Of a DNA stretch of 61,212 bases, positions 30,560-56,867 are shown one piece after another. Each line of letters opens with the position of its first letter. Position 1 is the stretch's first letter. Under the pieces are notes generated by a model that had not been told where the DNA came from, ran no database searches, and worked only from the letters and a program-made list of their open reading frames with translations. The translations under genes and the position numbers were made by a program. The DNA is taken from NCBI GenBank assembly GCA_020434565.1, contig JAGRAO010000001.1, positions 1 to 61,212 on the forward strand, given 5' to 3'. Origin of the DNA: Bdellovibrionales bacterium (GTDB taxonomy: Bacteria; Bdellovibrionota_C; UBA2361; RFPC01).

Positions 30560-30576
30560 TTAGAGCGGCACAAGTA

Positions 30577-30626
30577 AGACTCTCGTGTAACCCCGAACTA
30601 GGGGCTTGTGAGTCTAGGGTTTTTTG
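30577..30626 (+). terminator. Compound hairpin plus T-run downstream of dnaA
   Basis: AGACTC pairs with GAGTCT, enclosing CCCC-gaacta-GGGG. The hairpin is followed by AGGGTTTTTT. Confidence 0.6.
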
Positions 30627-31366
30627 ACGCTCGACTTTTCTCCTAAGCACGGTTTTCAGAACAGAGAAGCGAAATATTCGTTCGCTCGCGGGCTCAGTGC
30701 TTACCTCAACAGGGTATTCGTTCACGGAGCACCGCCGAGATTTTTGTGGACAACCCCGCTAACGTTTATTTATTACACTGTTTTTTCCGGTAAAACCTGT
30801 GGGTTTCTCTGTAGTACTTGGGGGTATCGTTCACCAAAAGGATCGTTTGCTTCATCCGAAAAAATGAACGGGAGAAATCACTCCCCTTTCCAACGGGTTT
30901 TCATCAGCTTTTCGCGGCGAGATCACAAACACTTTTCAGGATGTGGCCCACTTTCCAACAGATCTCACCCGTCCCTACTACTACAACTACTAAATCTCTC
31001 TTTAATAATAGTTACAAACCAAACCTCTTCGCTTTGATCTTATCTGTCTTTCACTCTCCACATTGAGCGAAGGAAAGAATGCTCTCTGTTTCGTGCAAAT
31101 GCCGCCTTATTTATCCCAGGAGGAAGTCCCCTTTGACTCTCCGAGGATTTCTAAGATTCAGTTCAATTACCGGCTCTTTTCGAATTGTTTTTAAATAATT
31201 TAATGTATAGTCACAGGTGCTGATGTACTCAGTGGGTTCGTAAACGTTCGTTTCATAAACGTTGTCTCTTTGCTTTTCTCGATTTCGAGGGCGAAGATGA
31301 GTTGCTCGCTCTCATACCTGTCATTGGGCAGTGATGGAGACCGCAACTTCAGCGAAAGGATTGCTG
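30627..31366. other. Candidate oriC in the long dnaA-dnaN spacer
   Basis: About 800 bp lie between the dnaA stop and the probable dnaN start. TGTGGACAA (30745-30753) has one mismatch to the DnaA box. CTCTCCACA (31054-31062) has two mismatches. An AT-rich run GAATTGTTTTTAAATAATTTAATGTATAG lies at 31182-31210. Confidence 0.5.
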
Positions 31367-32494
31367 ATGAATATTGTTGTAACTAAAGAAAATCTCGCGA
31401 AAGCCCTCTCCCTTACCCAAAGTGTGGTTGAACGAAAAACGACCATGCCTATCCTTGCAAACATTCTTTTAACCGTTCGTGAGAAAGGGTTGCAGCTTGC
31501 TGCCACAGACCTTGAAATTACTGCTCTCACATCAATTGACGCTCGTGTCCAGTCTACAGGAAGCACCACTGTCAATGCTCGAGTCTTTTCCGATATCGTT
31601 CGTGAGCTACCCGATGGAGAGGTTTCGCTTTCCCTAAGCGAGGGAGAGAGGCTAGAGATACTCGCTGGAAAATCTAAGTTTCGCATGATTGGAGTAAGTG
31701 CGGATGAATTTCCGAGTCTTCCCGGGATTACTATCGAAGTTTCCCATCGTGTTCCAGGAAAGCAGTTTCTTGAGATGATTCAGAAGACGTTGTACGCCGT
31801 CTCGCACGATGAAACACGGTTCAACCTGAACGGAGTTTGCTTTGAAGCATTGAGCGAAGGCAAGGGCAAGTCAACGAAGAAGATGGTTCGTATGGTAGCA
31901 ACAGATGGTCATCGACTCTCGATGATTACTCGCCCGTTTGGGGAGCTTTCTTTCGACGGAAGAGCCATCGTTCCCGCAAAGGGATTAAGTGAACTTCGAA
32001 AGCTCCTCGATGATGACGATTCAGAGGTCGGAGTGGCCCTTTCAGATGGATTTTTTGTGATTGAGAGTGCTCGGGGCAAGATTGCAACCCGCCTCATAGA
32101 TGGAGAGTTTCCAGACTATAATCAGGTGCTGCCGAAAAAAGCTGGAGAAATAGTGAGTGTGCCTTCAGGAGATTTTGCTCAAGCGCTGAGGAGAGCGGCT
32201 CTGATGGTGACTGACAAAGGCAAGTGCGTGAAGCTTGATTTCGGGAAAGACCGCTTGCGAATTTCAAGTTCCTCTCCTGAGCTCGGAGAATCAAGCGAAG
32301 AGTTGGCAGTTGGATTTAAAGGGGATCAGACGACGGTTGGTTTTAATGCTCGCTATCTCCTTGAGTTCTGCTCAAGTATAGAAGAAGAACAACCGCTTCT
32401 GCTTGAGTTGTCCGGTGAGCTTGGGCCTGCTCGGTTAAAAGTCGAGGGAGATGATTCATATTTCGGCGTAGTTATGCCAATGCGGCTTAACTAG
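31367..32494 (+). CDS. dnaN: DNA polymerase III beta sliding clamp
   Basis: MNIVVTKENLAKALSLTQSVVERKTTMPILANILL, ATDGHRL and GEFPDY are present. The start is set at ATG 31367, with AAAGGA 7 nt upstream. Confidence 0.95.
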   Translation: MNIVVTKENLAKALSLTQSVVERKTTMPILANILLTVREKGLQLAATDLEITALTSIDARVQSTGSTTVNARVFSDIVRELPDGEVSLSLSEGERLEILAGKSKFRMIGVSADEFPSLPGITIEVSHRVPGKQFLEMIQKTLYAVSHDETRFNLNGVCFEALSEGKGKSTKKMVRMVATDGHRLSMITRPFGELSFDGRAIVPAKGLSELRKLLDDDDSEVGVALSDGFFVIESARGKIATRLIDGEFPDYNQVLPKKAGEIVSVPSGDFAQALRRAALMVTDKGKCVKLDFGKDRLRISSSSPELGESSEELAVGFKGDQTTVGFNARYLLEFCSSIEEEQPLLLELSGELGPARLKVEGDDSYFGVVMPMRLN

Positions 32495-32752
32495 TATCCC
32501 GACCAATAGGCTTCCTCAATCTAGATTTTTAAGGAGAATTTTTAGGAATTACGAGCGCCGACCGAAGGAAGGCAAGACGACAAGGCACCTCGACTCGAGG
32601 AAAATCGGCTAACCTTCGGGTTTTTGCTGTGTAGAAATCTCTTCGTCTAGGTTCCTGTTGAAGCACTAGCCCGTTTTGCCAAATTCTTTTTTCTTAATGA
32701 AATGGTGGATCCTTTTTGAAGGACTTGTGCCAAAGCATCATGAAACTCTTGT

Positions 32753-33871
32753 ATGCATCTTTCTTCGCTTTCCCCCTATTGTTTTCGAAATCTCAGCCCC
32801 GGTTCGATAACGTTTAGTCCGGGGCTGAACTTTATTTTTGGAAAAAATGGCCAGGGCAAAAGCAACATTCTCGAAGCGGTCTCTCTTTTAAGTACAACCA
32901 CTTCATTTCGGACGAAGCGCTCCTCAGACCTTACCACGTGGGGGAAGGACGAATGTTCAGTAGCTGGGATAGTGTCTCAAGACGGGACTATCTTTGAGCT
33001 TCTTGTGACCCTTCAGCACGGGAGAAGATCGGCTTTTGTAAACGGTGACCGACTTAAACGTCTCTCGGATTTCGTTGGCAAGTTACCTGCTGTGACCTTT
33101 TCGCCAAATGATCTCGAACTCATTAAAGGGGGTCCCGGGGAGAGGCGCGCCTTTCTCGATCGATACTGCAGTTTTCTCTATCCTCAATATTTTGAATCTC
33201 TTTCACGTCTTCACCAGATAACGAGGAGCAAAGCAGCCCTTCTCAAAGAGAATCCAAGCTCGTTGAGCGCCTTGCAAAGCTGGAACGAGCTTTTCGCGGA
33301 GGAGGCTTTCACGGTTGCCTCATTTCGACGCCTCTTCATATCCGACCTTGAGCCCGGGGCTCAGATCGTCCACAGACGATATGCGAGCAATGATGGTTCT
33401 TTAGAGCTGCGACTTGTTTCGCAACTTTTACATGAGTCGGGAGCGGTGAAATCGAGGCAAGAAATTCTGAATGATTTATCGGCGGTACACCAGCGAGAGC
33501 GGGCAGCTGCAAAGGTTCTCTACGGACCGCAACGCGATGATATCGAGATATTTCTTAATGAGAAAAGCTCTCGAAGCTTTGCTTCTCAGGGGCAAAGCAG
33601 AAGCCTTGTACTCTCTCTCCTCATGAGCGTTCTTGAGCTCCTTCGGGCTAAAAACGGCGACTACCCGATTCTGCTCCTCGACGATGTAGAGTCTGAACTC
33701 GACCATGGTCGTCGAAATGACTTTTTTACCGCCCTCCTCGATCACGGATGCCAGACAATCGTTACCGGTACGGAAAGAGCTGAATTTTCAATATCGAATC
33801 AACTTTTGGACCAAGCAAGCTACTACGTTGTAGAGGCAGGAGAAGTTTGCCAGATTGACTCCAAAAACTAG
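32753..33871 (+). CDS. recF: DNA replication/repair protein RecF
   Basis: FRNL and the Walker A motif GKNGQGKSNILEA are present. The signature region is GQSRSLVLSL and the Walker B motif is ILLLDDVESELD. Confidence 0.9.
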   Translation: MHLSSLSPYCFRNLSPGSITFSPGLNFIFGKNGQGKSNILEAVSLLSTTTSFRTKRSSDLTTWGKDECSVAGIVSQDGTIFELLVTLQHGRRSAFVNGDRLKRLSDFVGKLPAVTFSPNDLELIKGGPGERRAFLDRYCSFLYPQYFESLSRLHQITRSKAALLKENPSSLSALQSWNELFAEEAFTVASFRRLFISDLEPGAQIVHRRYASNDGSLELRLVSQLLHESGAVKSRQEILNDLSAVHQRERAAAKVLYGPQRDDIEIFLNEKSSRSFASQGQSRSLVLSLLMSVLELLRAKNGDYPILLLDDVESELDHGRRNDFFTALLDHGCQTIVTGTERAEFSISNQLLDQASYYVVEAGEVCQIDSKN

Positions 33872-33938
33872 GCGATATGCAGGGGATAAGAGCGCTTTTT
33901 GTTCCCAGCGAACAAACAAGTAAAACTCTACCAAGAAC

Positions 33939-36733
<2,795 letters not shown>

Positions 36734-37390: not shown

Positions 37391-40279
37391 TTGTGGTTCT
37401 TGCACGTGAAGGTTGTTTTTACGAGGAGCGTCGCATGGGCGTGGTTGCTTCTCATCTGCATATTTGTTTCTCTTGTTCATCCTGAAGTGAGCTTCGCCAA
37501 ACGGAAGCGGCTGCCGCCGACGATGACGGTTGAACTCGAGGGAGATCTTGTTTGTGTCTACGATCAGCATCGCGATCGGTACTCGTCAGCCAAGGTCAAG
37601 CGTGTCACCCGTTCTGGAAAATTCCTTTTAGACCTCTCGACTCGCGATCTCTACCGGCAATCAAAGAAGCTTTCAAAAAAATTGAGACGCGATATCTCTC
37701 GCCTCGAAGCGCAGATACAGGTGCTCGATGTTGAGTCTCAAAAGTTCCAAAAGAGATATAAGAGGTATCAAAAGAAGCAGGGACAGCTAGAACTCGCGCA
37801 GCGTGAGTCTCTCGCTTACGAAAGATGCCGAGAACTCGACCAACCACCACTTAATTATTCTTCGTGTTCTATTAGCTCAGCTCACCAAGTAGTTCGCTAT
37901 TTGCCGGGTAAGGAACGCTCCTTTCACGTTCAACCTCTCGGAAACTGTATGGGAGAAACGAAGCTCGAAGTTCCAGAAGGGATATTGCCAGCGGGAGTCT
38001 CCGTTCAAAACGAGGAGATTCTCTTCACAAAGAATTCGTCGGACAGCGAAAGCTTTCCCTATAAATTGTGTACTGAAATTCAAGAAGGATTCCAAAGAGG
38101 GTTTACTCTCTGCAGTGATTCTTCGGTTCTCACACTTCAGAGCTGCTCTCTTTCTGGCGCAGCCCTGAACGTGACGGTGCCGGAGAAGATGACCTTTCCA
38201 CTATCGCTCTCAAAAACGGGAGACTGCGGTGGAAACCTCTCCCTTTCGGTCGTCTCGGAACCCGCAAAGGGCGAGCTTTCGACTACTTCCAATGGTGTGC
38301 TTGAATATACGGTCGGTTTTGCGACTGGGAGCGACTCTTTCGCATATCAAGTTTGTGACTCGGAAGTTGAAGGGTGCAGCGATCCGTATAACGTTAATCT
38401 TAACCTTTCTTCAGACCAAGACTTTATAGGCGACCCTCTTTCGTTAGAACCCTATCGCGAGCACGCGAGCTACGCGGAGAAAAAGTATCTTGTTTCCAAG
38501 CTTGCCGGAAACCTCCTCTCGCTTCTCGATATACAATCAGAAAGGTTGAGCGAGTTTGTAGACGATGTTCTTCTCGATGAGAACGTGTTTTCAAGTGACC
38601 TCCTCCCCGAACTCGAAGTCCTTCGCGACGGAAATTTTCCGGGAGATCATGGATACGAGTTCCGAATCAGCAACGTGACAGACCCGTTTATTGTTGACCA
38701 TCCGGATGTGAGTGACCCAAATAGTCCGCCGTTTAGCTCTTTTATAGAGATGTTTACAGGGGAAAGTTTTGATACTCCCGAAGTACAGCGGGAGGCAGTT
38801 ACTCGATTTCTCTCAACATCGGCGAGATCGAATCATCCTACGAATTCAAATTACCATTGGGGATATCCGCAAGCAGGCGGCTACCTCTTATTCAACGGGC
38901 GTTACCAAAATCCTTTTCATGCGACGATGATGCACCTCTTTCTCGGACACTTTGGAACAGCAACTCACGTACTTAATGGCGCGCAGGAGCATTGGGTTGG
39001 CGATTATCTCTATACGATAAAGCGGGAAGCTCTCGGCAATTTTAAGCGGATGATTCTTGGAACCGCCCCACACGGTTGCGCAAATGGAACGGGAGAAACC
39101 TCTACCAATGGGTTGGCAGGGATTCTCTGTGATGGAGCCTCCAATTTTTGGTTGAATCACCACCTCAATACGGGAACAACGCCAAACGAAAACTTCCCGA
39201 GAGAATTTCTTGAACTGTATATGATGGGTCCATTTGATCCGGTAACAGGGCTCGCGAACTACACCGATGTAAATGACATTCAGGGTGCAACGAGATTTCT
39301 CTCGGGTTTCACTACTTCAGGAGGAAATCCGTTTTATCTCAATTTATTTAAGTATTTCTCTAGTCGGCACTCCACTGAAAAACGAACCTTGTTCAATGAG
39401 CTTGAAGATCTCTATCCGGGGCTTGCGATTGAAAGCCAAAACATGACTCCAGAAGAATTTGTGAATCACTTATTTGAGCATCATCCAGGAATTTCGCGCT
39501 TTATTGCTCGAAAGCTCTTTAGTATGTTGGCATATCCCGAGCCACCCGCCGCTATCGTTGAGGATCTTGCGACGAGCTTTCGAGCTGATGGCTACGACTT
39601 AAAAAAGCTTCTCCGGCGCATTTTGCTTTCTGAAGCGATGTTCTCCCAACAGGCCGCTCAAAAGAATTGTGTCGCAAGCCCTTATCAAGGGCTCCAAAAA
39701 TTGATTAACGGTTTGAATCTCTCTCTCGTCGGGAACTATGAAGGGGGTGGAGGGTATCCGTATAACACTCGCATGTTTCGGCAAAAAGAGCTCTTTGACC
39801 ACCTGACTACCGCTGTCTCCTACGGCGGAGAAAAGATATTAAGCTATCCAAGTGTTTTTGGTTATGATTACTGCGGTGAAGATCCTGGAGAGACGGGAGC
39901 GAGCGAATGGCTCTCAGCAGCGAATATCGTCGGAAGAACCCAGGGATTAGTTCACTTCGCTTATTGGCATGGTGCTCGAGTGTATGAAAGACCGGAAAGC
40001 CCCGCGGCTACTCGATTTCGACAGATCTTAAATTCGATACCGATTGCGCGTGAAAATTTAACTCCACAAAACGTTCTGGATTACTATCTCGATCGATTTT
40101 CAGTGACTCTCACTGAACTCGAATATGAGCGGCTGATTCACTATCTTCAGTACAATTTTAGTGGTGGCGAAGAGGGGACGACGAATATTTGGAACCCAAT
40201 GAGTGACTCGGTCATGGAAGCAAAACTCGCAGGACTCTCTGTGATTTTTGGGAGTCTCCCACAAGCAAACATCTACTAG
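37391..40279 (+). CDS. Secreted DUF1800-family protein with long N-terminal extension (coiled coil plus Ig/cadherin-like segments)
   Basis: Signal-like N-terminus AWAWLLLICIFVSLVHPEVSFA. A Lys/Gln-rich coil follows, then DSFAYQVCD-type Ig-like segments. The C-terminal half carries DUF1800 hallmarks (FWLNHHLN, REFLELYMMG). The start codon is TTG 37391 or GTG 37406. Confidence 0.7.
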   Translation: MWFLHVKVVFTRSVAWAWLLLICIFVSLVHPEVSFAKRKRLPPTMTVELEGDLVCVYDQHRDRYSSAKVKRVTRSGKFLLDLSTRDLYRQSKKLSKKLRRDISRLEAQIQVLDVESQKFQKRYKRYQKKQGQLELAQRESLAYERCRELDQPPLNYSSCSISSAHQVVRYLPGKERSFHVQPLGNCMGETKLEVPEGILPAGVSVQNEEILFTKNSSDSESFPYKLCTEIQEGFQRGFTLCSDSSVLTLQSCSLSGAALNVTVPEKMTFPLSLSKTGDCGGNLSLSVVSEPAKGELSTTSNGVLEYTVGFATGSDSFAYQVCDSEVEGCSDPYNVNLNLSSDQDFIGDPLSLEPYREHASYAEKKYLVSKLAGNLLSLLDIQSERLSEFVDDVLLDENVFSSDLLPELEVLRDGNFPGDHGYEFRISNVTDPFIVDHPDVSDPNSPPFSSFIEMFTGESFDTPEVQREAVTRFLSTSARSNHPTNSNYHWGYPQAGGYLLFNGRYQNPFHATMMHLFLGHFGTATHVLNGAQEHWVGDYLYTIKREALGNFKRMILGTAPHGCANGTGETSTNGLAGILCDGASNFWLNHHLNTGTTPNENFPREFLELYMMGPFDPVTGLANYTDVNDIQGATRFLSGFTTSGGNPFYLNLFKYFSSRHSTEKRTLFNELEDLYPGLAIESQNMTPEEFVNHLFEHHPGISRFIARKLFSMLAYPEPPAAIVEDLATSFRADGYDLKKLLRRILLSEAMFSQQAAQKNCVASPYQGLQKLINGLNLSLVGNYEGGGGYPYNTRMFRQKELFDHLTTAVSYGGEKILSYPSVFGYDYCGEDPGETGASEWLSAANIVGRTQGLVHFAYWHGARVYERPESPAATRFRQILNSIPIARENLTPQNVLDYYLDRFSVTLTELEYERLIHYLQYNFSGGEEGTTNIWNPMSDSVMEAKLAGLSVIFGSLPQANIY

Positions 40280-40290
40280 AGGAGCAGATT

Positions 40291-41637
40291 GTGAGATCCT
40301 TCAATTCACTTCGGGGAGTATCGAGACGAAAATTTCTTAAGCTGTTAAGTCTTGGGCTTGCGTCCTACGGAATGGTTGGCCCGCGTGTCGCGAAGGCAGA
40401 TTTGAGTATCCCGGGAGGCGGGGAAACCAACGCTCCGAGGGTACTTATCATACTTGAAATGCTTGGGGGGTGTGACAATCTTGGACTCGCGCTTCCAACC
40501 GATTCGGAACGACTCTCACTGCTTCAGACAATTCGGGGAAATGCAATTTATGATTCGGAGGTAGTCAATCTTCACGGATATGGCATACCGATGGCACTTC
40601 ATCCTTCATTTGCTCCATTGTTGCCGCACTTTGATCACCTCAGAATTACGCAGAACATTGGGCATGCTACGCACACGAGCTCAAACGGCTCTCACGAAAA
40701 CATGCAGCTACGAATGGCGCTCGGAGGGGTTGGGTCGGACACGAACAATATTGGAACTGTTGGGAGAATGTACGATGCAGTGTCTGATTTGGAAGTTATC
40801 GGATTTCGTCCCTCTGAAGGGGTAAATTTCAATTGTCAGAGCGAGAAGTGCCAGATTCACAAGCCGCCAGTCTTTGATGTTTATGAGACTTTTACTCTCT
40901 CAGGTGAGTACTTCTCGAGTTCCCAAGGTGGTTCTAACAACGCAGCTCATGTAGCGAAGGTGCTTCGAGACCTATCGGACTTGCCCCCTCCTGAGGGAGC
41001 CAGCGCAAGAGAGCTTGAGTATCGTGAGAGCTTTCGAGGAGTATTTCCTGTCATCGATGAAATTCAAACCACGTTGACACAACACCAAACAGCTTTGCAT
41101 GACTCCTATCCGAGTACGAGCCTCGCAAACAAATTTCGAAATATTGCAAGTACAGTGTTACGGTGGAAACGAGAAGAGAGAACCATGCCAGCGGTTTTTG
41201 TGCTCGGAACTGGAGGATTCGATGTTCATCAGAGTTGGCAAACGAGTATGAGCAATGCCTTGTCTCCGATTGCCGATGCTCTTCGAGTTTTTTGTGACGA
41301 TATGATTGCCGAAGATCTCTTTGAAAATATCGTTGTTACAACCATGACAGAGTTTGGGAGACAACTCGCCTGGAATGGCTATGGAACAGATCACGGACGA
41401 GCCTTCCACGCCTTAACCATAGGCGGACGTATTAATGGTGGCACAAACGCAGTTTTCGGAAATACGATCTCAGCCGCGGATATCTCTTCGAACGTTTTTT
41501 GGGAGATAGAACGAGATTCGCGATCGCTCCTATCTGAGATTGTAGAAAATCATCTTCTCCTCGATCCACTTACAACAGCTTATCCAGGAGTGCTCGGTAC
41601 CCAATTCACGAGAGAGAGTTACGGCCTCTTCATCTAG
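40291..41637 (+). CDS. Tat-exported DUF1501-family (sulfatase/alkaline-phosphatase-like fold) protein
   Basis: The twin-arginine signal is SRRKFLKLLSLGLASYG...AKA. GGCDNLG and MTEFGR...NG.GTDHG are typical of DUF1501. It starts 11 nt after the DUF1800 gene. Confidence 0.8.
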   Translation: MRSFNSLRGVSRRKFLKLLSLGLASYGMVGPRVAKADLSIPGGGETNAPRVLIILEMLGGCDNLGLALPTDSERLSLLQTIRGNAIYDSEVVNLHGYGIPMALHPSFAPLLPHFDHLRITQNIGHATHTSSNGSHENMQLRMALGGVGSDTNNIGTVGRMYDAVSDLEVIGFRPSEGVNFNCQSEKCQIHKPPVFDVYETFTLSGEYFSSSQGGSNNAAHVAKVLRDLSDLPPPEGASARELEYRESFRGVFPVIDEIQTTLTQHQTALHDSYPSTSLANKFRNIASTVLRWKREERTMPAVFVLGTGGFDVHQSWQTSMSNALSPIADALRVFCDDMIAEDLFENIVVTTMTEFGRQLAWNGYGTDHGRAFHALTIGGRINGGTNAVFGNTISAADISSNVFWEIERDSRSLLSEIVENHLLLDPLTTAYPGVLGTQFTRESYGLFI

Positions 41638-48935: not shown

Positions 48936-51227
48936 ATGACCGAAGAGAGCACGTTAGACGAAGAGTCCAGTTCAAGCCAAGGAGCGAGAGCTGAGACCGA
49001 TTTCTTTCCAGATTATAGCCTTTCATACAAAAGGAGATTCGGGGCATTCCTCTTTCTCTTTGGTCTCCTCATGTATCACCGCTTGCCAGTAGTGGAGCAT
49101 CTTTCCACCGCCTATTATGGCGGTGCAAGAGGCGATGCTGGGCTCTACGTTTGGTTGACGAGAAGTATCGGAGATGCGCTGTCGTGGCGACGTTGGTTTG
49201 ATACATCTGCGTTTTTCCCTTACCGAGAAACTCTCGCGTGGAGTGATAATTTCATTCTTCCGTCGCTCTGTACTCAAGCGCTGGAGGCGCTCGGATTTTC
49301 TCATATCGCGGCGTATAATCTTGTCTTGTTAGGCGCGGGGCTCCTTGCTGGGTATTGGACTTTTCGACTTGCGTACCTGATTTCGGGCCAATTTTTGGGT
49401 TCACTCTTGAGTGGGTCAACTTTTCTTTCGCTCGGGTATCTCTCGGGTGTCTCCGGCCATCCGCAGTTGCAGTTCGTGTTTTTCTTTCCGCTTGTTTTCT
49501 ACTTTTTCTTTCGCTTTGTTTCGTCACCGAGCTACTCCCGCAGTTTCATTATAGGCCTCGGGCTTTCGGGAGCGTTTTTAACCACGGTTTACTTCGCGCT
49601 CTTTTCGGGCTTTGCCGTGGTATTATTGTTTTGTGCGTTCTCTGTGCTTCGGCCTTGGAGGATGAATCGCTTCGCAGCCTCGAGGTTCATCGTTGGGGTC
49701 TCAGTTGGTCTCGTTCCAGCAGCTCCCTTTATTGTTCCCTACTTCGACGTTGCGAATATTTTTTCAGCTCGAGATATATTCGAAGCATTTGCGTTTCGAG
49801 CGAGTCCACTTTCGTATTTTGCCGGCTCGGAACATAATGTTCTCTACTCGTTTACAAATTCCCTTTCCCATGCAGAAGCACACCTCTTTCCGGGATTTGT
49901 CTTTTATCTTTTGAGTTTTATTCCAATTGCCTTGTTGTGGTGGGTGCGCTCGCTTCGTCCTTATTATTTAGGAGTGATTCTATCGGGGGTCTTCGGCTCT
50001 GCGCTTGTCGCCCTTGATCCAAAAGTCGCAAACTCATTTATTCAATCGGTCATCCATGGATTCGTGATTTTTCTTCTTTGGCTTTCCTGGTTTCTCTTTG
50101 CTGGGGCCCTCTATCGCTTAGGGCGCCGAGAAGAGGAGACAGGAGTACTGTTCGTAACAAACCGTTCGCTCACACTTCTGATTGGATTTCTTGCCTATTC
50201 TTTCTATCTCCTCTCTCTCGGGCCGGTCTTTGACCCGCGCGCGACATCACTCGGATCGTTTTCGCCATTTGGCATTTTGTATCATATCGTTCCCGGCTTT
50301 GATTCTATGCGAGCGATTAGTAGGTGCGGAGTTTTGGTCCTGCTTTTCTTGAGTGTCCAGCTCAGCTTCTCCACTGTCTCTTTAAAGAGAGTACGTAGAG
50401 CCGAAGTAGTCGTCGGTTTGTTGTTTCTCTTTATCTATGGAGAGAACCTGGTGCGCTATATCGATTTAGAGACCCCCCAAAAGCTTCCTACTGTTCTCTC
50501 GGAGGTCCAAAAGGTAGCGCAGAGAGAAGATGTCATTATGTTTCTCCCCTGGACACAAGAGATCAATCCGAGTGGAGGGGTAAAAAGTTGGGGAGATTTT
50601 GCAAGAAAGAACTCAATATATATGAATTGGTCGGCCCAGATCGGTTTGAAGACTACAAATGGGTACAGTGGTTTGAGGTCAAAGCTCATGAAAGAATTGC
50701 CGCGCAAAATGAGCGGCTTTCCTGATCAGCGTTCACTTACGACGCTTGCATTTCTTGGTAATGTTCGATTTGTCGTGTTGTGTCCATACCTCTTGGAGGG
50801 ATTTGACGAGAACTATTTTCGCGAAGAACTCTCTCTTTATGAGAATGATTTAAAACTTCTCGGGCAAGATGAGGACGGAAACTTCGCCTTTGAGTTTATT
50901 GGAGAGAGTAAGGTTCGAGAGGCACTTCAGGTGCTTCTCCCAGCTCACTCACGGTCCTTCGTGCATTTGGAAGTCAAATCGCTCTACCAGCCGAATTCTC
51001 CCGAGATTCCCTTGACTCTGAGGGAATCTCTTCACTACCAGGGCGAAGCGCTTGGCACCCTTACGATCAAAAGCGATGGGCAGTGGCAAGGTTTTCTCTT
51101 GCCTCTGCCCGAACCAAAGGTTCCCGTCATTCCGTTTCAACTTCAGTTTGAAACGACGGAGGGCAGTGCTGTCTATGTGAAGGATGTTCGTGCCGTTCCG
51201 GGAGAGTCAAGTGAGGAAGAGATGTGA
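48936..51227 (+). CDS. Large polytopic membrane protein with C-terminal soluble domain (GT-C-like architecture)
   Basis: About 12-14 hydrophobic segments over 480 aa, then a soluble domain of roughly 270 aa. The architecture resembles YfhO/ArnT-type glycosyltransferases. This is a call from architecture, not a motif-level match. Confidence 0.45.
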   Translation: MTEESTLDEESSSSQGARAETDFFPDYSLSYKRRFGAFLFLFGLLMYHRLPVVEHLSTAYYGGARGDAGLYVWLTRSIGDALSWRRWFDTSAFFPYRETLAWSDNFILPSLCTQALEALGFSHIAAYNLVLLGAGLLAGYWTFRLAYLISGQFLGSLLSGSTFLSLGYLSGVSGHPQLQFVFFFPLVFYFFFRFVSSPSYSRSFIIGLGLSGAFLTTVYFALFSGFAVVLLFCAFSVLRPWRMNRFAASRFIVGVSVGLVPAAPFIVPYFDVANIFSARDIFEAFAFRASPLSYFAGSEHNVLYSFTNSLSHAEAHLFPGFVFYLLSFIPIALLWWVRSLRPYYLGVILSGVFGSALVALDPKVANSFIQSVIHGFVIFLLWLSWFLFAGALYRLGRREEETGVLFVTNRSLTLLIGFLAYSFYLLSLGPVFDPRATSLGSFSPFGILYHIVPGFDSMRAISRCGVLVLLFLSVQLSFSTVSLKRVRRAEVVVGLLFLFIYGENLVRYIDLETPQKLPTVLSEVQKVAQREDVIMFLPWTQEINPSGGVKSWGDFARKNSIYMNWSAQIGLKTTNGYSGLRSKLMKELPRKMSGFPDQRSLTTLAFLGNVRFVVLCPYLLEGFDENYFREELSLYENDLKLLGQDEDGNFAFEFIGESKVREALQVLLPAHSRSFVHLEVKSLYQPNSPEIPLTLRESLHYQGEALGTLTIKSDGQWQGFLLPLPEPKVPVIPFQLQFETTEGSAVYVKDVRAVPGESSEEEM

Positions 51228-52230: not shown

Positions 52231-53748
52231 CTATCCTATCTGACTTCCATCGCTACACGCAGCACACTGACCTTCGTCATCAACGCCGCACGGGCACTCG
52301 CAATAGCAAGTGTCATTCGCGCCCTCTTGAACTGCGCCACCATTGGCGCACGAAAAATCCTGGCATCCACATTCGCAAGAATCAGGATCTCGGGTTTTAT
52401 TTCCTGGGCAAGCAGTCGATACACACACACAATCTCCAACCTCTGGAGCGCCACCGGACCACTCTCTGTTTCCTTGACAAGTGCACTGACATTGAGCGTT
52501 GTGATACGGATTATTCGGATTACCATTTACTGAGTAGGGACGTTGGCCATATCCGAGAATTGAATTTGCAGGGCACCCTCCCCAGTTTGACAGGCACCAA
52601 CACGAACAGCGATCGGGAGCAAGCATCATTCGCTCAGCAGGGATGCCGTACAACGTTTCACAATCAGACATCGTAAGTTCTCTTCCTTCAGCCGAGCCAT
52701 CGTCTACGCGACATTCACAACGATAGGTGGAATCATCTGTCCCGGTTATGACTCTGCCAGGAAGAAAGGTGATTGGCGGTGCCGGCGGATCTCCATCATC
52801 TGGATCCCAATATGGCATGGGTGGAGCGGGAGAGTCTCCTCCAGGCGGTGGATCACATTCGCACTCTGCCTCAACACCACCATTAAAGCCGGTATTTTGA
52901 TAGCAACCACAACGACACTTGTTTGGACCAACCGAGTATCGCACACTTCCCGGCCCGTATTTGTCGACACAAAATTCTGTCGTTGGACATTTGCAATTAA
53001 AATCGTCTGCAAAGCTGTTGAAATAATTTTTCCCTTCAGGTTCTTCTCCGGTTGCTGAGCGGTCAAACTGGCAGGCGTGGCAGGTTCCAATCCCTTCATC
53101 GTCAATGAACCACAGTGAATTCGGCTCATCAGAACAATCACACGGCCCCTGACCATAGTTCGGCATTCCAAATGGAATGCCAGCGCAATCCACCTTGAGT
53201 GTGCCGGAGTACGGGGTAATCTGTTCTCGATACGCTACTGCCGTTCGAACAACCTGCTGGTACGATGATGAACCATCAAATGCGGAGTAGATGAGCGACA
53301 CTGGATTTACGACATAATACGTCAGCCGCAACACTATCGGCTCAGAGAGAAACGCTGCTCGTTGGCTTTGTCCGTCTTCTGGTTCGGGAAGGATAACCGA
53401 AGCGGCATCAATCGGGGCAAATGCGAATCCCCCCGGTCCGCCTATCGAGATGAGGCCTTGAGATACTGGAAGATCAAGCATCGCTGCTCTAACTTTTTCA
53501 ACTCCGAGACACCATCCGGTCGCATCGTGGTCATTCGCAGTGCAATCCTCTCGGTTCTCTTCGAACTCGGCGGCTGTTGTGGCCAAGGTAATCGCGCGCC
53601 CTAGTGCGGTGTCAACAATTCCGTTAGTGAGCATCCACAATCCAAAGTAGCAGACGGCGAGAACGAGAGAGAAGAAAATAGGGAGGCCAATAGCGTACTC
53701 TATGAACTGAGCACCGGCTTCGTGGGATATTTCTCTTCGCCTCTTCAT
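52231..53748 (-). CDS. TadE/Flp-type pseudopilin-like N-terminus fused to a large Cys-rich (CxC/CxCxC) domain
   Basis: The N-terminus is MKRRREISHEAG-AQFIEYAIGLPIFFSLVLAV, a G/AxxIEY prepilin-type motif plus a hydrophobic helix. I count about 39 Cys by hand. Clusters include PCDC, NCKC, KCRCGC, ECEC, RCEC, RCSCWC, QCQCTC, DCVC, SCECGC and TCYCECPC. Confidence 0.7.
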   Translation of the reverse strand: MKRRREISHEAGAQFIEYAIGLPIFFSLVLAVCYFGLWMLTNGIVDTALGRAITLATTAAEFEENREDCTANDHDATGWCLGVEKVRAAMLDLPVSQGLISIGGPGGFAFAPIDAASVILPEPEDGQSQRAAFLSEPIVLRLTYYVVNPVSLIYSAFDGSSSYQQVVRTAVAYREQITPYSGTLKVDCAGIPFGMPNYGQGPCDCSDEPNSLWFIDDEGIGTCHACQFDRSATGEEPEGKNYFNSFADDFNCKCPTTEFCVDKYGPGSVRYSVGPNKCRCGCYQNTGFNGGVEAECECDPPPGGDSPAPPMPYWDPDDGDPPAPPITFLPGRVITGTDDSTYRCECRVDDGSAEGRELTMSDCETLYGIPAERMMLAPDRCSCWCLSNWGGCPANSILGYGQRPYSVNGNPNNPYHNAQCQCTCQGNREWSGGAPEVGDCVCVSTACPGNKTRDPDSCECGCQDFSCANGGAVQEGANDTCYCECPCGVDDEGQCAACSDGSQIG

Positions 53749-53800
53749 TTTTTGTCGGTCCTTGGCGAGGTATCGTCTCCGAACAATATCTCGTGCAATA

Positions 53801-56092
53801 TTAGAGATCGGGGTCTACGATCGCAAAACTCTGGCTATTGATAAAGACATCTTTAAACGCTTGGCTCACCTGTTCTCTCGGAGAGCGACAGCCCCAGTCG
53901 TAAAAATTGCGCTGTCCGCTGAGTGCTTTACAATCGATAACTGGAACGTCATCGGGGCAGCCGGGATGTACCGTTCGAACCGGTTGATAGATCCCACCGG
54001 TAATAACAGATGCCCTATAGAGAGCCTCAGCAGCTGGGGTAAACCCAAAATTTTCATACCGGTTATTAAACAGACCATTTCCGAATTCGTCGTTATAGAC
54101 CTCTCGGCCCTCAACAAAGAGCTGGCCGGAAGCCCGCGCCTCGTCGTCCGATATGCAAGCGACAGCTCCCCCCTCCTCCTTTTTGTCCTTCGGTATGAAG
54201 AGGGTATGCGCTCCGCCCTGTTGGCCGGCGTGAATATGATGCAGCGCGATATTTGACTGAAAGAGCGAAATGAATGCGATGTCAAGATAGTCATCGGCAG
54301 CTTTGCGCCATGTTTCGTAGTTTAGCTCGCAAAATTTTCCCTTTCCTGAAATGCCAGACAGCTGTTCGGCTGATTCACCATTGACGCATGAATGGATTCC
54401 GTCTGTAGCGTGAACAATCAGCTTTACTGCAGAGAAATTTGCTTCAGCGTCGGAAAGCTGTCGGGCGGCTTCGGTCAACGCCAGGGTAGAATTTGTAAAT
54501 CCCGACGCAGTCGGAAAAAGTCGGAGCTTGATCCAGCGCGGGAGCTGAACGACGTCGTCCCCGAGATCGTTGAAATAGGTGTTGGGATCTGGAGAATTGA
54601 GTCCGGGGAGAGATCCAACGCCATTTTCTCCAACAATCTCTTCGAGGACAGAGAGCGGGTAGTCGAGATTCTGGGTAAGATTAATGACTCGTCCCCATGT
54701 GAGCTCTTCGTCGTAGGCAATGAGGGCTGCGCGATCGTTTGGAACACCACGCTTCTTTAGCAAGGCGAGAGTTTCGTGGATTCCCCGAATAATCGACATG
54801 AACGGTTCCGGCCCAACAACGGGATAATTGTCACGCTCGTTGTCGAGGTAATAATAAAGGGGTGAAGGATCAGCCGAGTCGGTAATATTTTCCGCTTCTC
54901 CCGGTACTGGATGATACTGTCTGTCAGAGTAGAGCTCCCTTCCCTCTATTGAGATGGGATACGTAAAAACAGGATCGGTCCGGTATTCGTCCTTGGCGTG
55001 TGAGCGAAAATCGGGGCTTCCATCGTCTGTTTCAGGGAGGTTTTCCCAGTTCGTCGCAACCAAATCAGGGGTAACTTTCCAGGCTCCAGCGTCTTGCACA
55101 ACCTGATAAGCGAAAAATGCCGCAGGAGGCTGGTCAGAATTGGGATCAGGAGTGGCGGTCGGACTCGGCTCTTCCTCTACCTCAGCCTCATCAAGCGGGT
55201 CTACGGGAGAAAGGATATCGGACTTTACAGGTGTTTCGAATTCATAAGTTCCGAGCGCTTTCCCAAAATCAAAACCAGCAAATTTAGACTCCTCTTCTTC
55301 GCCAGAAGCCGCGCTCTCTTCTTCGCTTCCTTCATCCGCACCCTCGTTCTTTGCTCCGAGGTCGACCTCTTTAGGAGCTTCTGGATTTTTTGTATCAATT
55401 TCCGGATCATTTTTCGCATTACCACCTTCATCATCGCCAAGGGGCGGGAGGTGAGTTATCTCAGCCACGGAAGCTGAGAGATCAGCCATAAATACGGCAA
55501 AAATAGGAGCAACTGCAGCAGCCGAGGTAATCTCTATGTAATCTCGTTTTGAGCTGGTGAAAGAGTTTGCCCATGAAAGGCGGTCACTCGCGATTTTCCC
55601 ACGAATCGTTACAGCGTTTGCCAGCTCATCCGAGGTGCGACCGCATAGAGTAGGGGGAACCTGGCGATTACACGACTCGGGGAGAGAACCGTCAAGCGGT
55701 AACGCGGTATAGTGACGTTGAGCCGTTACCTGGAGGATACCAACTTCGTTTGAACTCTCAGTTTGGAACTCTACATTTCCTAGCACAGCTGAGCTTTGGT
55801 AGGAGAGGGCCTCGAGGGCGTCGAGTGCAGCTTCTTGTTTTTTAGCGTGGCACACCGAAGTCGAGTCAGCCGGCTCACACTGTTCCGCCGCATATCCCTT
55901 TAAATAGGCAAGGGCGAGGTGATTCATTGCCGCCTGCATCTGCTCGACGGTAGAGCCGGTTGTTGAGATGTAATAGATCCCAAAAGCAAAGAGCACCGTA
56001 AAAGAAAACACGGCTGTAGCGAGAAGGATCATTCCTCCACCAGCTTCCGATTGGAATCGCCTTACATTTTGCATATAGCCATCAGTTCGCAA
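53801..56092 (-). CDS. TadG-like membrane-anchored von Willebrand factor A (vWA) domain protein
   Basis: The N-terminal anchor is GGGMILLATAVFSFTVLFAFGIYYI. The MIDAS motif is FMADLSAS (DxSxS). Later vWA elements are GFTNST and LIVHATDG. A large acidic insert follows the MIDAS motif. Confidence 0.7.
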   Translation of the reverse strand: MRTDGYMQNVRRFQSEAGGGMILLATAVFSFTVLFAFGIYYISTTGSTVEQMQAAMNHLALAYLKGYAAEQCEPADSTSVCHAKKQEAALDALEALSYQSSAVLGNVEFQTESSNEVGILQVTAQRHYTALPLDGSLPESCNRQVPPTLCGRTSDELANAVTIRGKIASDRLSWANSFTSSKRDYIEITSAAAVAPIFAVFMADLSASVAEITHLPPLGDDEGGNAKNDPEIDTKNPEAPKEVDLGAKNEGADEGSEEESAASGEEEESKFAGFDFGKALGTYEFETPVKSDILSPVDPLDEAEVEEEPSPTATPDPNSDQPPAAFFAYQVVQDAGAWKVTPDLVATNWENLPETDDGSPDFRSHAKDEYRTDPVFTYPISIEGRELYSDRQYHPVPGEAENITDSADPSPLYYYLDNERDNYPVVGPEPFMSIIRGIHETLALLKKRGVPNDRAALIAYDEELTWGRVINLTQNLDYPLSVLEEIVGENGVGSLPGLNSPDPNTYFNDLGDDVVQLPRWIKLRLFPTASGFTNSTLALTEAARQLSDAEANFSAVKLIVHATDGIHSCVNGESAEQLSGISGKGKFCELNYETWRKAADDYLDIAFISLFQSNIALHHIHAGQQGGAHTLFIPKDKKEEGGAVACISDDEARASGQLFVEGREVYNDEFGNGLFNNRYENFGFTPAAEALYRASVITGGIYQPVRTVHPGCPDDVPVIDCKALSGQRNFYDWGCRSPREQVSQAFKDVFINSQSFAIVDPDL

Positions 56093-56171
56093 TACAGGGC
56101 TCTATGAGAATCATAAAAGAGAGAGCCCGATTCGCGAACTCCTAAAAATCACTCTCAAGAGAGATTTGTAC

Positions 56172-56867
56172 CTATTCACCGACAAAGAGAAACGGTCCAG
56201 TGCTCGAAGCAGAAATTTTAGCAGTGTTTCCCCAAATCGCACGGAAAAAAATCGGCGCACTCATCTCAAGTCGGACCTCTACCATGTCAGTTCGAGTGTT
56301 ATGAGGCGGCTCTGACGGAGTTGGAGTTGGCTCTGGGCTTGTACCTCCCCCACCTGCTTCGCAAGGACTTCCTTTGTCACCAGCGTCAAATATGTTGTCA
56401 GGAGTGAGAGAGTTGTCATCTTTTATTTCTGCCACTTCTTTGCACGGCTCAGGCGAAAGAACCGATCGAAGCTGTGGATCACCTCCGACAAGCACATCCT
56501 CCTGCCACCGTCGGGTCGTTACAGAAACCCCGGCACGGAGTTTGTTGCCATACTGGTTGATCATCCGGTTAATCTTATTCTGCACTTCGTAGTGAACCGT
56601 TCCTTGAGGGGCTTCACCTGCATACGTGGCAAGCTCAAGGTCGGGAGTATCTGACATGAGCCGTGATCCTTGGTACGCCAACTGTGAGAGTGTGTAGTAT
56701 TGCTGCAAGAGCATCCCGACATCAACAAGCAGCGCAAAGAGCAACAGAAATACGGGCAGTACTAAACTGAACTCCACCAACGCCACGCCGCCCTCATCCC
56801 GAATTTGAAAAGGGAAGGGGGAGGTGCGTCTTTGTCCTCTCCGGATAGCCATTGTTGAAAAGCCCAC
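56172..56867 (-). CDS. TadE-like pseudopilin-type protein
   Basis: EGGVALVEFSLVLPVFLLLFALLVDVG is the TadE-like N-terminal motif. The start is GTG 56867 or ATG 56852. Confidence 0.7.
   Translation of the reverse strand: MGFSTMAIRRGQRRTSPFPFQIRDEGGVALVEFSLVLPVFLLLFALLVDVGMLLQQYYTLSQLAYQGSRLMSDTPDLELATYAGEAPQGTVHYEVQNKINRMINQYGNKLRAGVSVTTRRWQEDVLVGGDPQLRSVLSPEPCKEVAEIKDDNSLTPDNIFDAGDKGSPCEAGGGGTSPEPTPTPSEPPHNTRTDMVEVRLEMSAPIFFRAIWGNTAKISASSTGPFLFVGE

What the first reader, a model, noticed from the sequence alone, without database searches (positions are those of the whole stretch)
52231..56867. Orphan three-gene Tad-like module (TadE-like, TadG-like vWA, TadE-like with Cys-rich domain) with no pilin or secretion machinery nearby
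Three consecutive minus-strand genes are separated by only 52 and 79 nt. All begin with Tad minor-pilin-type N-termini: GVALVEFSLVLP, a GGGMILLATAV anchor, and G-AQFIEYAIGLP.

Classical tad loci carry tadE/F/G next to flp, tadV/cpaA, rcpA/cpaC and the tadA/cpaF ATPase. None of those is in this 61-kb window. The neighbours are an aldo/keto reductase (convergent) and a YqeY gene.

The two larger proteins (763 and 505 aa) are far larger than typical TadE/TadF pseudopilins. They carry an adhesin-type vWA domain and an unusual Cys-rich domain. This suggests a specialised pilus-tip or surface-display complex, or a module that has lost its link to pili altogether. This is my best candidate for an undescribed system in the window.
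Basis: partly seen in the sequence, partly recalled or inferred. Interest (0 to 1): 0.7.

Follow-up and report, generated by a model that had tools for sequence, protein, structure and literature searches.

The report
Stand-alone Tad pilus tip gene trio
Three adjacent genes encode a conserved set of Tad-type minor pilins (a small one, a cysteine-rich one and a large one carrying a metal-dependent vWA adhesion domain) that most likely form the tip of a Tad pilus whose machinery is encoded elsewhere. This arrangement was recently described in predatory bacteria, so it is a divergent new member of a known kind rather than a new system.

Summary
The three minus-strand genes are real, at the stated coordinates. 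P1 (226-231 aa) and P3 (505 aa) match Pfam TadE and keep the prepilin Gly(-1)/Glu(+5) motif.

P2 (757-763 aa) matches no HMM. An exhaustive HMMER search nevertheless found about 170 relatives. An AlphaFold2 model (pLDDT 84) shows a pilin-like N-terminal helix, a beta module and a vWA domain with an invariant MIDAS motif. Its best PDB matches are vWA pilus-tip adhesins. P2 has a hydrophobic residue in place of Glu5, as capping subunits do.

P3 carries a conserved 36-cysteine module of unknown fold.

The trio recurs in 10 other loci. Eight stand alone among housekeeping genes. Two are operon-linked to a TadB/C-like gene and lie next to an FHA gene. No Tad core gene is in the 61-kb window, which is the whole contig.

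The module corresponds to TadE/F/G. It resembles Caulobacter CpaJKL, the stand-alone Myxococcus kilLMN "Tip" clusters (2025) and the dispersed Bdellovibrio tad genes (2026).

Verdict: observation confirmed, pilus-tip reading supported, "undescribed system" not supported. Interest is moderate.

The parts
56172..56852 (-). P1: small TadE-type minor pilin (226 aa from ATG 56852; the ORF extends to GTG 56867). The leader ends at Gly22, with Glu at +5 (GG|VALVEF). It carries a window-specific insert of about 60 aa, rich in Pro/Thr/Ser (roughly aa 130-190).
   Evidence: PF07811 TadE 46.2 bits, E 5e-12. Homologs lie at the head of the trio in 10 other loci. Gly(-1) and Glu(+5) are conserved. The insert is absent from homologs.
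53801..56074 (-). P2: large TadG/CpaL-like minor pilin (757 aa from ATG 56074; 763 aa from TTG 56092). It has a pilin-like alpha1 helix and beta module followed by a split vWA domain, and it lacks Glu5.
   Evidence: About 170 relatives by exhaustive phmmer. AF2 model pLDDT 83.9, pTM 0.84. Foldseek top hits are all vWA proteins, many of them pilus-tip adhesins. 10 of 34 homologs hit PF13400 Tad.
55886..56044 (-). P2 N-terminal hydrophobic alpha1 helix (aa 11-63 of the 757-aa form). It is preceded by a conserved Gly. The +5 position is Leu, not Glu.
   Evidence: DSSP on the AF2 model shows helix H11-63. Gly is present in 96 of 113 aligned family members. The +5 position is Leu, Phe, Met, Ile or Val, and never Glu among the listed residues.
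55469..55483 (-). P2 MIDAS motif D-x-S-x-S (D198/S200/S202 in 757-aa numbering; D204/S206/S208 in 763-aa numbering), at the end of the first vWA beta strand. The other MIDAS residues are T527 (nt 54494-54496) and D558 (nt 54401-54403).
   Evidence: D, S, S and D are invariant in the 34-sequence alignment, and Thr is also invariant among the 7 closest sequences. The motif follows strand E191-198 in the model.
55154..55432 (-). P2 acidic, disordered insert (aa 215-307) that splits the vWA domain just after the MIDAS DxSxS. It is followed by a structured insert up to about aa 424.
   Evidence: pLDDT is below 50 for aa 215-307. Length and sequence vary between homologs. CpaL has an insert at the same position (PMC11870444).
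53804..54802 (-). P2 C-terminal main part of the vWA alpha/beta domain (aa 425-757), with conserved cysteines.
   Evidence: Alternating helix/strand pattern at pLDDT mostly above 90. This is the region matched by most family members. Cysteines are invariant.
52231..53748 (-). P3: TadE/TadF-type modular minor pilin (505 aa). The leader ends at Gly12, with Glu at +5 (AG|AQFIEY).
   Evidence: PF07811 22.9 bits, equal to the cutoff. Homologs are adjacent to the P2 homolog in 11 other loci. Glu17 is invariant and Gly12 nearly invariant.
53224..53715 (-). P3 pilin-like module (aa 12-175): a long alpha1 helix plus a small beta sheet.
   Evidence: AF2 model shows H3-58 followed by strands, with pLDDT about 70-82 in this part only.
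52234..53187 (-). P3 cysteine-rich C-terminal module (aa 188-505). It has 36 Cys and recurring CxC/CxCxC motifs; the fold is unknown.
   Evidence: 27 Cys are conserved in at least 9 of 10 homologs. The module has only 2 His and no internal repeat by BLAST. No Pfam hit: CXCXC PF03128 scores 13.9 bits against a cutoff of 15. The AF2 model is low-confidence here and Foldseek finds nothing.

Best explanation
The three genes encode the minor-pilin 'tip' (priming) complex of a Tad (type IVc) pilus.

Proposed mechanism:
1. P1 and P3 are made as prepilins. A prepilin peptidase encoded elsewhere (TadV or PilD type) cleaves them after the conserved Gly.
2. They use Glu5 to dock into the filament.
3. P2 has the same pilin-like helix but a hydrophobic residue in place of Glu5. 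It is therefore the first, capping subunit.
4. The three alpha1 helices bundle on the TadB/C platform, nucleate polymerisation of the Flp major pilin, and are carried outwards at the distal end.
5. At the tip, P2 presents a MIDAS-containing vWA domain that binds a ligand on a surface or another cell through a bound divalent cation. P3 presents a disulfide-stabilised Cys-rich module that braces or extends the tip.
6. The Tad motor, platform, secretin and major pilin are encoded elsewhere in the genome, as in Bdellovibrio bacteriovorus and Myxococcus xanthus.

Shown here: domain and fold assignments, the processing motifs, co-conservation of the trio, and occasional operon linkage to a TadB/C-like gene.

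Inferred: cleavage, heterotrimer formation, tip location, the ligand, the disulfide (rather than metal-bound) state of the P3 cysteines, and the existence of Tad core genes in this genome.
For: Family and motif evidence:
- TadE domain in P1 and P3.
- Gly(-1) and Glu(+5) conserved in the P1 and P3 families. The P2 family keeps the Gly but has Leu, Phe, Met, Ile or Val at +5. The review PMC10191384 states that tip complexes are capped by a subunit lacking Glu5.

P2 structure:
- High-confidence model with a 53-residue alpha1 helix, a beta module and a vWA domain.
- Foldseek top hits are vWA domains, including the pilus-tip adhesins SpaC, GBS104, RrgA and Mfa5 and the S. sanguinis vWA minor pilin PilB.
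- MIDAS D-x-S-x-S, T and D are invariant.
- 10 of 34 homologs hit PF13400 Tad.
- The architecture matches CpaL, the Caulobacter TadG orthologue: a pilin module plus a vWA domain split after the MIDAS motif, with SpaC as top structural analogue.

Gene neighbourhood:
- The trio is conserved in 10 further loci, tightly spaced at 1-41 nt in most of them.
- In L007 and L016 the P2 homolog is followed by a TadB/C-like T2SSF gene, with start and stop codons overlapping in L007 and a 2-nt gap in L016. An FHA gene is adjacent in both.

Published precedents:
- Detached three-gene Tip clusters that prime Kil/Tad pili and are rich in predicted disulfides (PMC12075869).
- Dispersed tad genes, a lone tadG, and FHA and histidine-kinase neighbours in B. 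bacteriovorus.
Against: - No Tad core gene or Flp pilin lies in the 61-kb contig. The rest of the genome could not be examined, so a cognate machine is assumed.
- P2 itself matches no Tad or vWA HMM.
- The T2SSF hits in L007 and L016 are below Pfam's gathering score (22.7 bits against 25.2) and have no NCBIfam or PDB sequence support.
- The heterotrimer was not modelled.
- The gene order here (P1-P2-P3) differs from every other locus (P1-P3-P2).
- The P3 Cys-rich module has no structural or functional assignment.
Confidence: 0.75

Rival explanations
1. A pilus-independent envelope complex. The three proteins stay anchored in the inner membrane by uncleaved N-terminal helices and act as a periplasmic or surface vWA adhesin or sensor, like the BatA/BatB-type membrane vWA proteins. 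They would have kept only the pilin-like anchor from a Tad ancestry.
For: - The best Foldseek hits are the membrane-anchored vWA proteins BatB and 4jdu.
- No Tad core gene lies within 61 kb here, nor within up to 10 kb in 8 other loci.
- An older view places TadG in an inner-membrane subcomplex (Table 1 of PMC10191384).
Against: - Gly(-1) and Glu(+5), which matter only for cleavage and filament docking, are conserved in the P1 and P3 families.
- The Glu5-less P2 next to two Glu5-bearing pilins is the pattern of tip complexes.
- Operon linkage to a TadB/C-like gene in two loci.
- Detached tip clusters are functional parts of the pilus in Myxococcus.
Confidence: 0.12
2. Same assembly, but a specifically predatory function. 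The trio would be a Kil-like 'Tip' used for prey recognition, killing or invasion by a Bdellovibrio-like predator, rather than for generic surface adhesion. It could be one of several interchangeable tips per genome.
For: - Family members occur in MAGs labelled 'uncultured Bdellovibrionales'.
- Kil Tips are detached three-gene clusters with many predicted disulfides, and Tip-like complexes were predicted in B. bacteriovorus.
- tadG depletion impairs prey invasion in B. bacteriovorus.
- FHA and histidine-kinase neighbours in L007 and L016 mirror those described around Bdellovibrio tad genes.
Against: - The taxonomy and lifestyle of the window's organism are unknown. Its genome is absent from the GTDB species representatives searched.
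- KilN's distal domain is reported to have no PDB analogue, whereas P2 carries a canonical vWA domain like the non-predatory CpaL/TadG.
- Only one trio is seen in the window.
- Homology to Kil Tip proteins was not tested.
Confidence: 0.3
3. A decaying remnant of a lost tad locus with no current function.
For: It is isolated from any machinery in the window, and its gene order is rearranged relative to all relatives.
Against: - Three long intact ORFs.
- Functional residues are conserved in the window's own proteins: the MIDAS residues and cysteines of P2, 27 well-conserved Cys positions in P3, and Gly/Glu5 in P1 and P3.
- The same stand-alone layout is maintained in at least 8 divergent loci at 22-35% identity, which implies purifying selection.
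Confidence: 0.03

Closest known systems
[quoted passage not shown]
   Same: - Three minor pilins: two TadE-like plus one large protein.
- The large protein has a pilin-like module, then a vWA domain split by a large insert immediately after the DxS/TxS MIDAS motif, with Thr and Asp contributed from the second segment.
- SpaC is among the best structural analogues.
- CpaL is predicted to be the first (tip) subunit.
   Different: - The cpa genes lie within the cpa/tad locus, whereas this trio stands alone.
- CpaL's insert is two beta-barrels. P2's insert begins with about 90 acidic, disordered residues.
- No detectable HMM-level similarity of P2 to Tad or VWA models.
- P3 carries a module of about 320 aa with 36 Cys, which is not described for CpaJ or CpaK.
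Myxococcus xanthus KilL/KilM/KilN 'Tip1-4' clusters (PMC12075869)
   Same: - Three-gene clusters of TadE/F/G-like modular minor pilins: one short, one with an extended C-terminus, one large.
[quoted passage not shown]
- Numerous predicted disulfides.
- They prime pilus assembly and decorate the tip.
   Different: - The KilN distal domain is reported to have no PDB analogue, whereas P2's is a canonical MIDAS vWA domain.
- By the authors' HMMs the Kil Tips are restricted to Myxococcota.
- Homology to P1, P2 and P3 was not tested here.
- Only one trio is seen in this contig.
Bdellovibrio bacteriovorus HD100 dispersed Tad system with a lone tadG (bioRxiv 10.64898/2026.07.08.737194)
   Same: - Tad genes are scattered over several loci and tadG is encoded on its own.
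- tadC is encoded separately.
- FHA, TPR and histidine-kinase genes lie next to tad genes, as in L007 and L016.
- Relatives of P2 occur in MAGs labelled Bdellovibrionales.
   Different: - In the window all three minor pilins travel together.
- The relationship of P2 to HD100 TadG is untested.
- The window's organism is unidentified.
Streptococcus sanguinis modular type IV minor pilins PilB (vWA) and PilC (lectin)
   Same: - A pilin module fused to an adhesive module.
- PilB structures (7b7p, 7ba2) are among the Foldseek hits to the P2 model.
- They form a tip-located heterotrimer with a third minor pilin.
   Different: - A type IVa pilus of a monoderm, not a Tad/type IVc pilus.
- No sequence similarity.
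- A different partner module: a lectin versus the Cys-rich module.

Membership tests
TadE-like minor pilin (Pfam PF07811) | Match to the TadE N-terminal HMM at or above the gathering score | tested here: met
   P1 scores 46.2 bits against a cutoff of 22.9. P3 scores 22.9 bits, exactly at the cutoff. Precomputed Pfam marks several P1 and P3 homologs in other loci as TadE.
Type IV (class III signal) prepilin | A short charged leader ending in Gly, Glu at +5, then a hydrophobic alpha1N helix | tested here: met
   P1 has GG|VALVEF and P3 has AG|AQFIEY. Gly and Glu are invariant or nearly so in both families. Long N-terminal helices appear in the models. P2 has the Gly and the helix but Leu at +5.
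Type IV (class III signal) prepilin | Cleavage by a prepilin peptidase (TadV or PilD) | not testable with these tools
   No peptidase gene is in the window. This needs an experiment.
TadG / CpaL-like large minor pilin | N-terminal Tad (TadE/G-like) domain, Pfam PF13400 | tested here: inconclusive
   P2 itself has no hit even at E <= 10, but 10 of 34 aligned homologs hit PF13400, best E 2.3e-5.
TadG / CpaL-like large minor pilin | vWA domain detectable by sequence HMM (PF00092, PF13519) | tested here: not met
   No VWA-family hit for P2, with or without its inserts. Only 2 of 34 homologs reach VWA_2. PDB sequence and profile searches found nothing.
TadG / CpaL-like large minor pilin | vWA fold by structure | tested here: met
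   AF2 model pLDDT 83.9. The Foldseek top 50 are almost all vWA or integrin-I domains. Best E is 3.5e-5, and the target-normalised TM-score is about 0.5 for single-domain targets.
TadG / CpaL-like large minor pilin | MIDAS motif DxSxS...T...D | tested here: met
   In 763-aa numbering, D204, S206, S208 and D564 are invariant in 34 sequences, and T533 is invariant in the 7 closest. Metal binding itself was not tested.
Canonical tad locus (flp-tadV-rcpCAB-tadZABCDEFG) | Minor pilin genes adjacent to tadA/B/C, rcpA, tadV and flp | tested here: not met
   None is in the 61-kb window, nor in the flanks of L002, L005, L008, L009, L010 and L013. Only L007 and L016 have a sub-threshold T2SSF (TadB/C-like) gene directly downstream.
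Detached Tad 'Tip' cluster (KilLMN type) | Three co-conserved genes for one short, one extended and one large minor pilin, encoded apart from the core machinery | tested here: met
   The trio is present in the window and in 10 other loci, 8 of them without any Tad core gene in the sequence available.
Detached Tad 'Tip' cluster (KilLMN type) | Predicted or observed heterotrimer with an alpha1N bundle; sequence homology to Kil Tip proteins | not tested
   No multimer prediction tool was available and no Kil sequences were on hand.
CXCXC repeat (Pfam PF03128) | HMM match at or above the gathering score | tested here: not met
   The P3 Cys-rich region scores 13.9 bits against a cutoff of 15, E 0.076. 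The resemblance is compositional only.

The most novel reading that the evidence does not exclude
The P1-P3-P2 trio would define a previously unrecognised, sequence-divergent class of Tad pilus tips. It would be specific to uncultured Bdellovibrionota-like bacteria. The roughly 320-aa, 36-cysteine CxC-rich module of P3 would be a new fold that, together with the MIDAS vWA domain of P2, determines which prey or surface the pilus engages. The cassette would be free to move around the genome independently of the machine.
Probability: 0.3. Interest if true: 0.55.

Novelty: new member of a known kind. Interest (0 to 1): 0.38.

Why it matters
Tad pilus tips are only now being recognised as the part that gives these pili their specificity: prey killing in Myxococcus, prey invasion in Bdellovibrio, surface sensing in Caulobacter.

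This trio, with its family of about 170 sequence clusters, is a divergent tip module. Pfam and NCBIfam detect only the short N-terminal TadE domain of P1 and P3, and nothing in P2. That suggests tip diversity in uncultured lineages is under-counted.

It also offers two handles for experiments: a MIDAS site to mutate, and a conserved Cys-rich module of unknown fold.

It does not reveal a new kind of system.

Tried and rejected
- Word-indexed homolog searches with P2, P3 and a 34-sequence P2 profile returned only the window's own proteins. These proteins first looked like orphans, until the exhaustive HMMER search found about 170 relatives.
- Pfam on P2 with its inserts removed, on its N-terminal part, on the P3 Cys-rich part and on the P3 middle part gave nothing significant.
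- NCBIfam gave nothing for the three proteins or their homologs.
- PDB sequence and profile searches for P2 and P3 gave nothing.
- Locus searches with alignments A1, A2, A3 and A8 failed because they had no conserved 7-10-residue stretch. The P3-based patterns found nothing in GTDB representatives.
- The exact-sequence look-up of P1 (GTG form) and of P0001 found no record.
- The P3 structure came out at low confidence (pLDDT 58) and its fold search was uninformative.
- No Rfam element, such as a c-di-GMP riboswitch, lies near the genes. No sigma-70-like promoter was predicted on the minus strand upstream of P1.
- A metallothionein-like metal-binding role for the P3 module was considered and judged less likely than disulfides. 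The protein is exported, the number of cysteines in the module is even (36), there are only 2 His, and Kil Tips are predicted to be disulfide-rich. This was not tested.
- A functional link to the neighbouring aldo/keto reductase or YqeY was rejected, because neither neighbour recurs in other loci.
Full report
**1. Observation**

The three minus-strand ORFs exist as described.
- P1 is at 56172-56867 (231 aa from GTG). An in-frame ATG at 56852 gives 226 aa.
- P2 is at 53801-56092 (763 aa from TTG). The database gene call starts at ATG 56074 and gives 757 aa.
- P3 is at 52231-53748 (505 aa).
- The gaps are 52 nt and 79 nt (97 nt with the ATG start of P2).
- The neighbours are a convergent aldo/keto reductase and a YqeY gene on the same strand.

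The window is chromosomal core DNA. It holds the dnaA-dnaN-recF-gyrB cluster, topA, gidA, glnA, icd, a COX2 gene and others. It is also the whole contig, at 61,212 bp.

None of the 43 ORFs scanned matches a Tad core component. A six-frame search for the pilin motif G-x4-E-[YF] found only P1 and P3 as pilin-like, and no Flp. So both the observation and the 'no machinery nearby' statement are confirmed for this contig.

**2. What the proteins are**

*P1 and P3.* P1 matches Pfam TadE at 46.2 bits and P3 at 22.9 bits, which is exactly the cutoff. Both have a short basic leader ending in Gly, Glu at +5 and a hydrophobic helix. In alignments of their homologs, Glu(+5) is invariant and Gly(-1) is invariant or nearly so.

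*P2 by sequence.* P2 matches nothing in Pfam or NCBIfam. This holds even after I removed its acidic insert. The word-indexed homolog search returned only P2 itself. The exhaustive HMMER search, however, found 170 cluster representatives at E <= 1e-3, of which 110 were at E <= 1e-10. Most are 620-800 aa long and 25-34% identical.

In alignments of these relatives the residues D204-x-S206-x-S208 and D564 are invariant, and T533 is invariant among the seven closest. Together they form a complete MIDAS motif. Several cysteines are also invariant. Ten of 34 members hit the Tad (TadE/G-like) N-terminal domain and two hit VWA_2.

*P2 by structure.* An AlphaFold2 model built on 113 sequences is confident (pLDDT 83.9, pTM 0.84). 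In 757-aa numbering it contains:
- a 53-residue N-terminal helix;
- a beta module;
- a strand ending in the DxSxS motif;
- a disordered acidic insert (aa 215-307);
- an alpha/beta domain.

Foldseek against the PDB returns almost only vWA or integrin-I domains. They include BatB, the sortase-pilus tip adhesins SpaC, GBS104 and RrgA, the type V pilus tip protein Mfa5, and the S. sanguinis vWA minor pilin PilB.

*P2 processing site.* The P2 family keeps Gly(-1) in 96 of 113 aligned sequences, and 10 are gapped at that column. At +5 it has Leu, Phe, Met, Ile or Val, and never Glu among the listed residues.

*P3 C-terminal half.* Residues 188-505 contain 36 Cys, of which 27 are conserved in at least 9 of 10 homologs. 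CxC and CxCxC motifs recur. There are only 2 His and no detectable internal repeat. The region has no Pfam assignment, its model is unreliable (pLDDT 58) and the fold search found no match. Only the N-terminal pilin-like module of P3 is modelled with moderate confidence.

**3. Conservation of the trio**

I used context look-ups and locus scans together with profile HMMs built from my own alignments.
- A P1-like, a P3-like and a P2-like gene lie together in L002, L005, L006 (the same contig as L014), L007 (the same locus as L017 and L018), L008, L009, L010, L012, L013 and L016.
- The order is P1-P3-P2 in all of them; in L010 the P1-like gene is divergent. Spacing is tight in most, at 1-41 nt.
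- L001 has a P3-like gene divergent from the P2-like gene. L003 has a weak P3-like fragment at its cut end. L015 has no P3-like neighbour. L004 and L011 are cut at the P2-like gene.
- The window's order, P1-P2-P3, is unique.

The genes are therefore strongly co-conserved.

Eight of the ten complete trios show no Tad core gene in the sequence available. Six were checked by Pfam:
- L005: YajQ, aconitase, thyA and folA.
- L008: transketolase, a VKOR-DsbA fusion and PEPCK.
- L009: polysaccharide export genes, a UDP-glucose dehydrogenase and an FG-GAP protein.
- L010: phosphoglucose isomerase, DsbD, thiolase, alanine racemase, AspRS, FliD and FliS, within a full 10 kb on each side.
- L013: gatCAB and a shikimate kinase.
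- L002: a thiolase and an FG-GAP protein.

L006 and L012 are short contigs with almost no flank.

In L007 and L016 the picture differs. Their P2 homologs are only 41% identical to each other. In both, the P2 homolog is followed directly by a 302-310-aa protein with a near-full-length but sub-threshold T2SSF match (E 1e-4, 22.7 bits against a cutoff of 25.2). These two proteins are 29% identical to each other (E 1e-33). The L007 protein has a TadB/C-like arrangement of transmembrane segments, and its GTG start overlaps the P2 homolog's TGA stop. An FHA-domain gene lies next to both clusters.

**4. Mechanism**

The most economical reading is a Tad pilus tip, or priming, complex.
- There are two Glu5-bearing minor pilins, P1 and P3. 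There is also one large Glu5-less pilin-like protein, P2, which caps the filament.
- A published review states that tip complexes are capped by a subunit lacking Glu5 and that filaments grow from tip to base (PMC10191384).
- P2 would display a metal-dependent vWA adhesion site at the distal end.
- P3 would add a disulfide-stabilised module.

The following remain inferred: processing, heterotrimer formation, tip location, the ligand, and the presence of a Tad machine elsewhere in the genome.

**5. Comparison with known systems**

- *Caulobacter CpaL.* The TadG orthologue CpaL is described as a pilin-like module plus a vWA domain. Its vWA domain is split by an insert right after the DxS/TxS MIDAS motif. 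SpaC is its top structural analogue, and it is predicted to sit first in the filament with CpaJ and CpaK (PMC11870444). This is the same architecture as P2.
- *Myxococcus xanthus.* It has four paralogous three-gene kilLMN 'Tip' clusters. [quoted passage not shown] They are predicted to form disulfide-rich heterotrimers. Pilus polymerisation was abolished only when all four Tips were deleted. Tip-like complexes were also predicted in B. bacteriovorus (PMC12075869).
- *B. bacteriovorus HD100.* It has a dispersed tad repertoire with a lone tadG, a separate tadC locus, and FHA, TPR and histidine-kinase neighbours. Depleting tadG impairs prey invasion (bioRxiv 10.64898/2026.07.08.737194).
- *Taxonomy.* Two loci with P2 relatives come from MAGs labelled 'uncultured Bdellovibrionales'. 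The window's own taxon is not established, and its genome was not among the GTDB representatives searched.

**6. Verdict**

'Lost its link to pili' is unlikely. 'Undescribed system' is not supported, because detached TadE/F/G-type tip clusters are a known kind.

What is new is a divergent family that standard HMM libraries barely detect: Pfam sees only the N-terminal TadE domain of P1 and P3, and nothing in P2. The family includes a conserved Cys-rich module of unknown fold on the TadF-like partner. I rate it a new member of a known kind, with moderate interest.

Noticed in passing
window 48936-51227 (+); L003 3165-5087: A 763-aa protein with a multi-transmembrane N-terminal half has no Pfam, NCBIfam or PDB match. 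Its homolog (36% identical, E 2e-101) lies directly downstream of the P2 homolog in L003. In the window it is one gene away from P3. This could be plain synteny or a functional partner, for example a membrane glycosyltransferase; that idea is untested.
   Followed up: partly
L010 3456-5714; L008 3864-5096: Disulfide-handling genes sit two genes upstream of the trio in two loci: DsbD in L010 and a VKOR-DsbA fusion in L008. This fits the 36-42 cysteines of the P3-like proteins, but it may be coincidence (2 of about 12 loci).
   Followed up: no
window 56300-56480 (P1, roughly aa 130-190): The window's P1 carries an insert of about 60 aa, rich in Pro/Thr/Ser and containing two Cys, that is absent from the P1 homologs aligned with it.
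   Followed up: no
L009 7196-7765; L012 1678-4614: The Cys-rich module is expandable. L009 has an extra 190-aa Cys-rich ORF between the P3-like and P2-like genes, 34% identical to part of the P3-like protein. L012 has a 979-aa P3-like protein with 87 Cys.
   Followed up: no
window 29096-36733 and composition profile: The dnaA-dnaN-recF-gyrB cluster coincides with the minimum of cumulative GC skew at about 30-32 kb. The chromosomal replication origin therefore probably lies in this window, about 20 kb from the trio.
   Followed up: no
window 37391-41637: A DUF1800/DUF1501 gene pair. The DUF1800 protein is 962 aa and has a bacterial Ig domain. It appears unrelated to the finding.
   Followed up: no
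P2 and P3 (method note): The word-indexed protein search returned only self-hits for P2, P3 and even a 34-sequence P2 profile. The exhaustive HMMER search found about 170 relatives of P2. 'Orphan' calls from the indexed search alone would have been wrong.
   Followed up: yes
L007 3681-8072; L016 12026-12970: In the two loci where the trio is linked to a TadB/C-like gene, an FHA-domain protein is adjacent. In L007 a PAS-GAF histidine kinase lies upstream as well. This echoes the regulatory neighbours reported around Bdellovibrio tad genes.
   Followed up: partly
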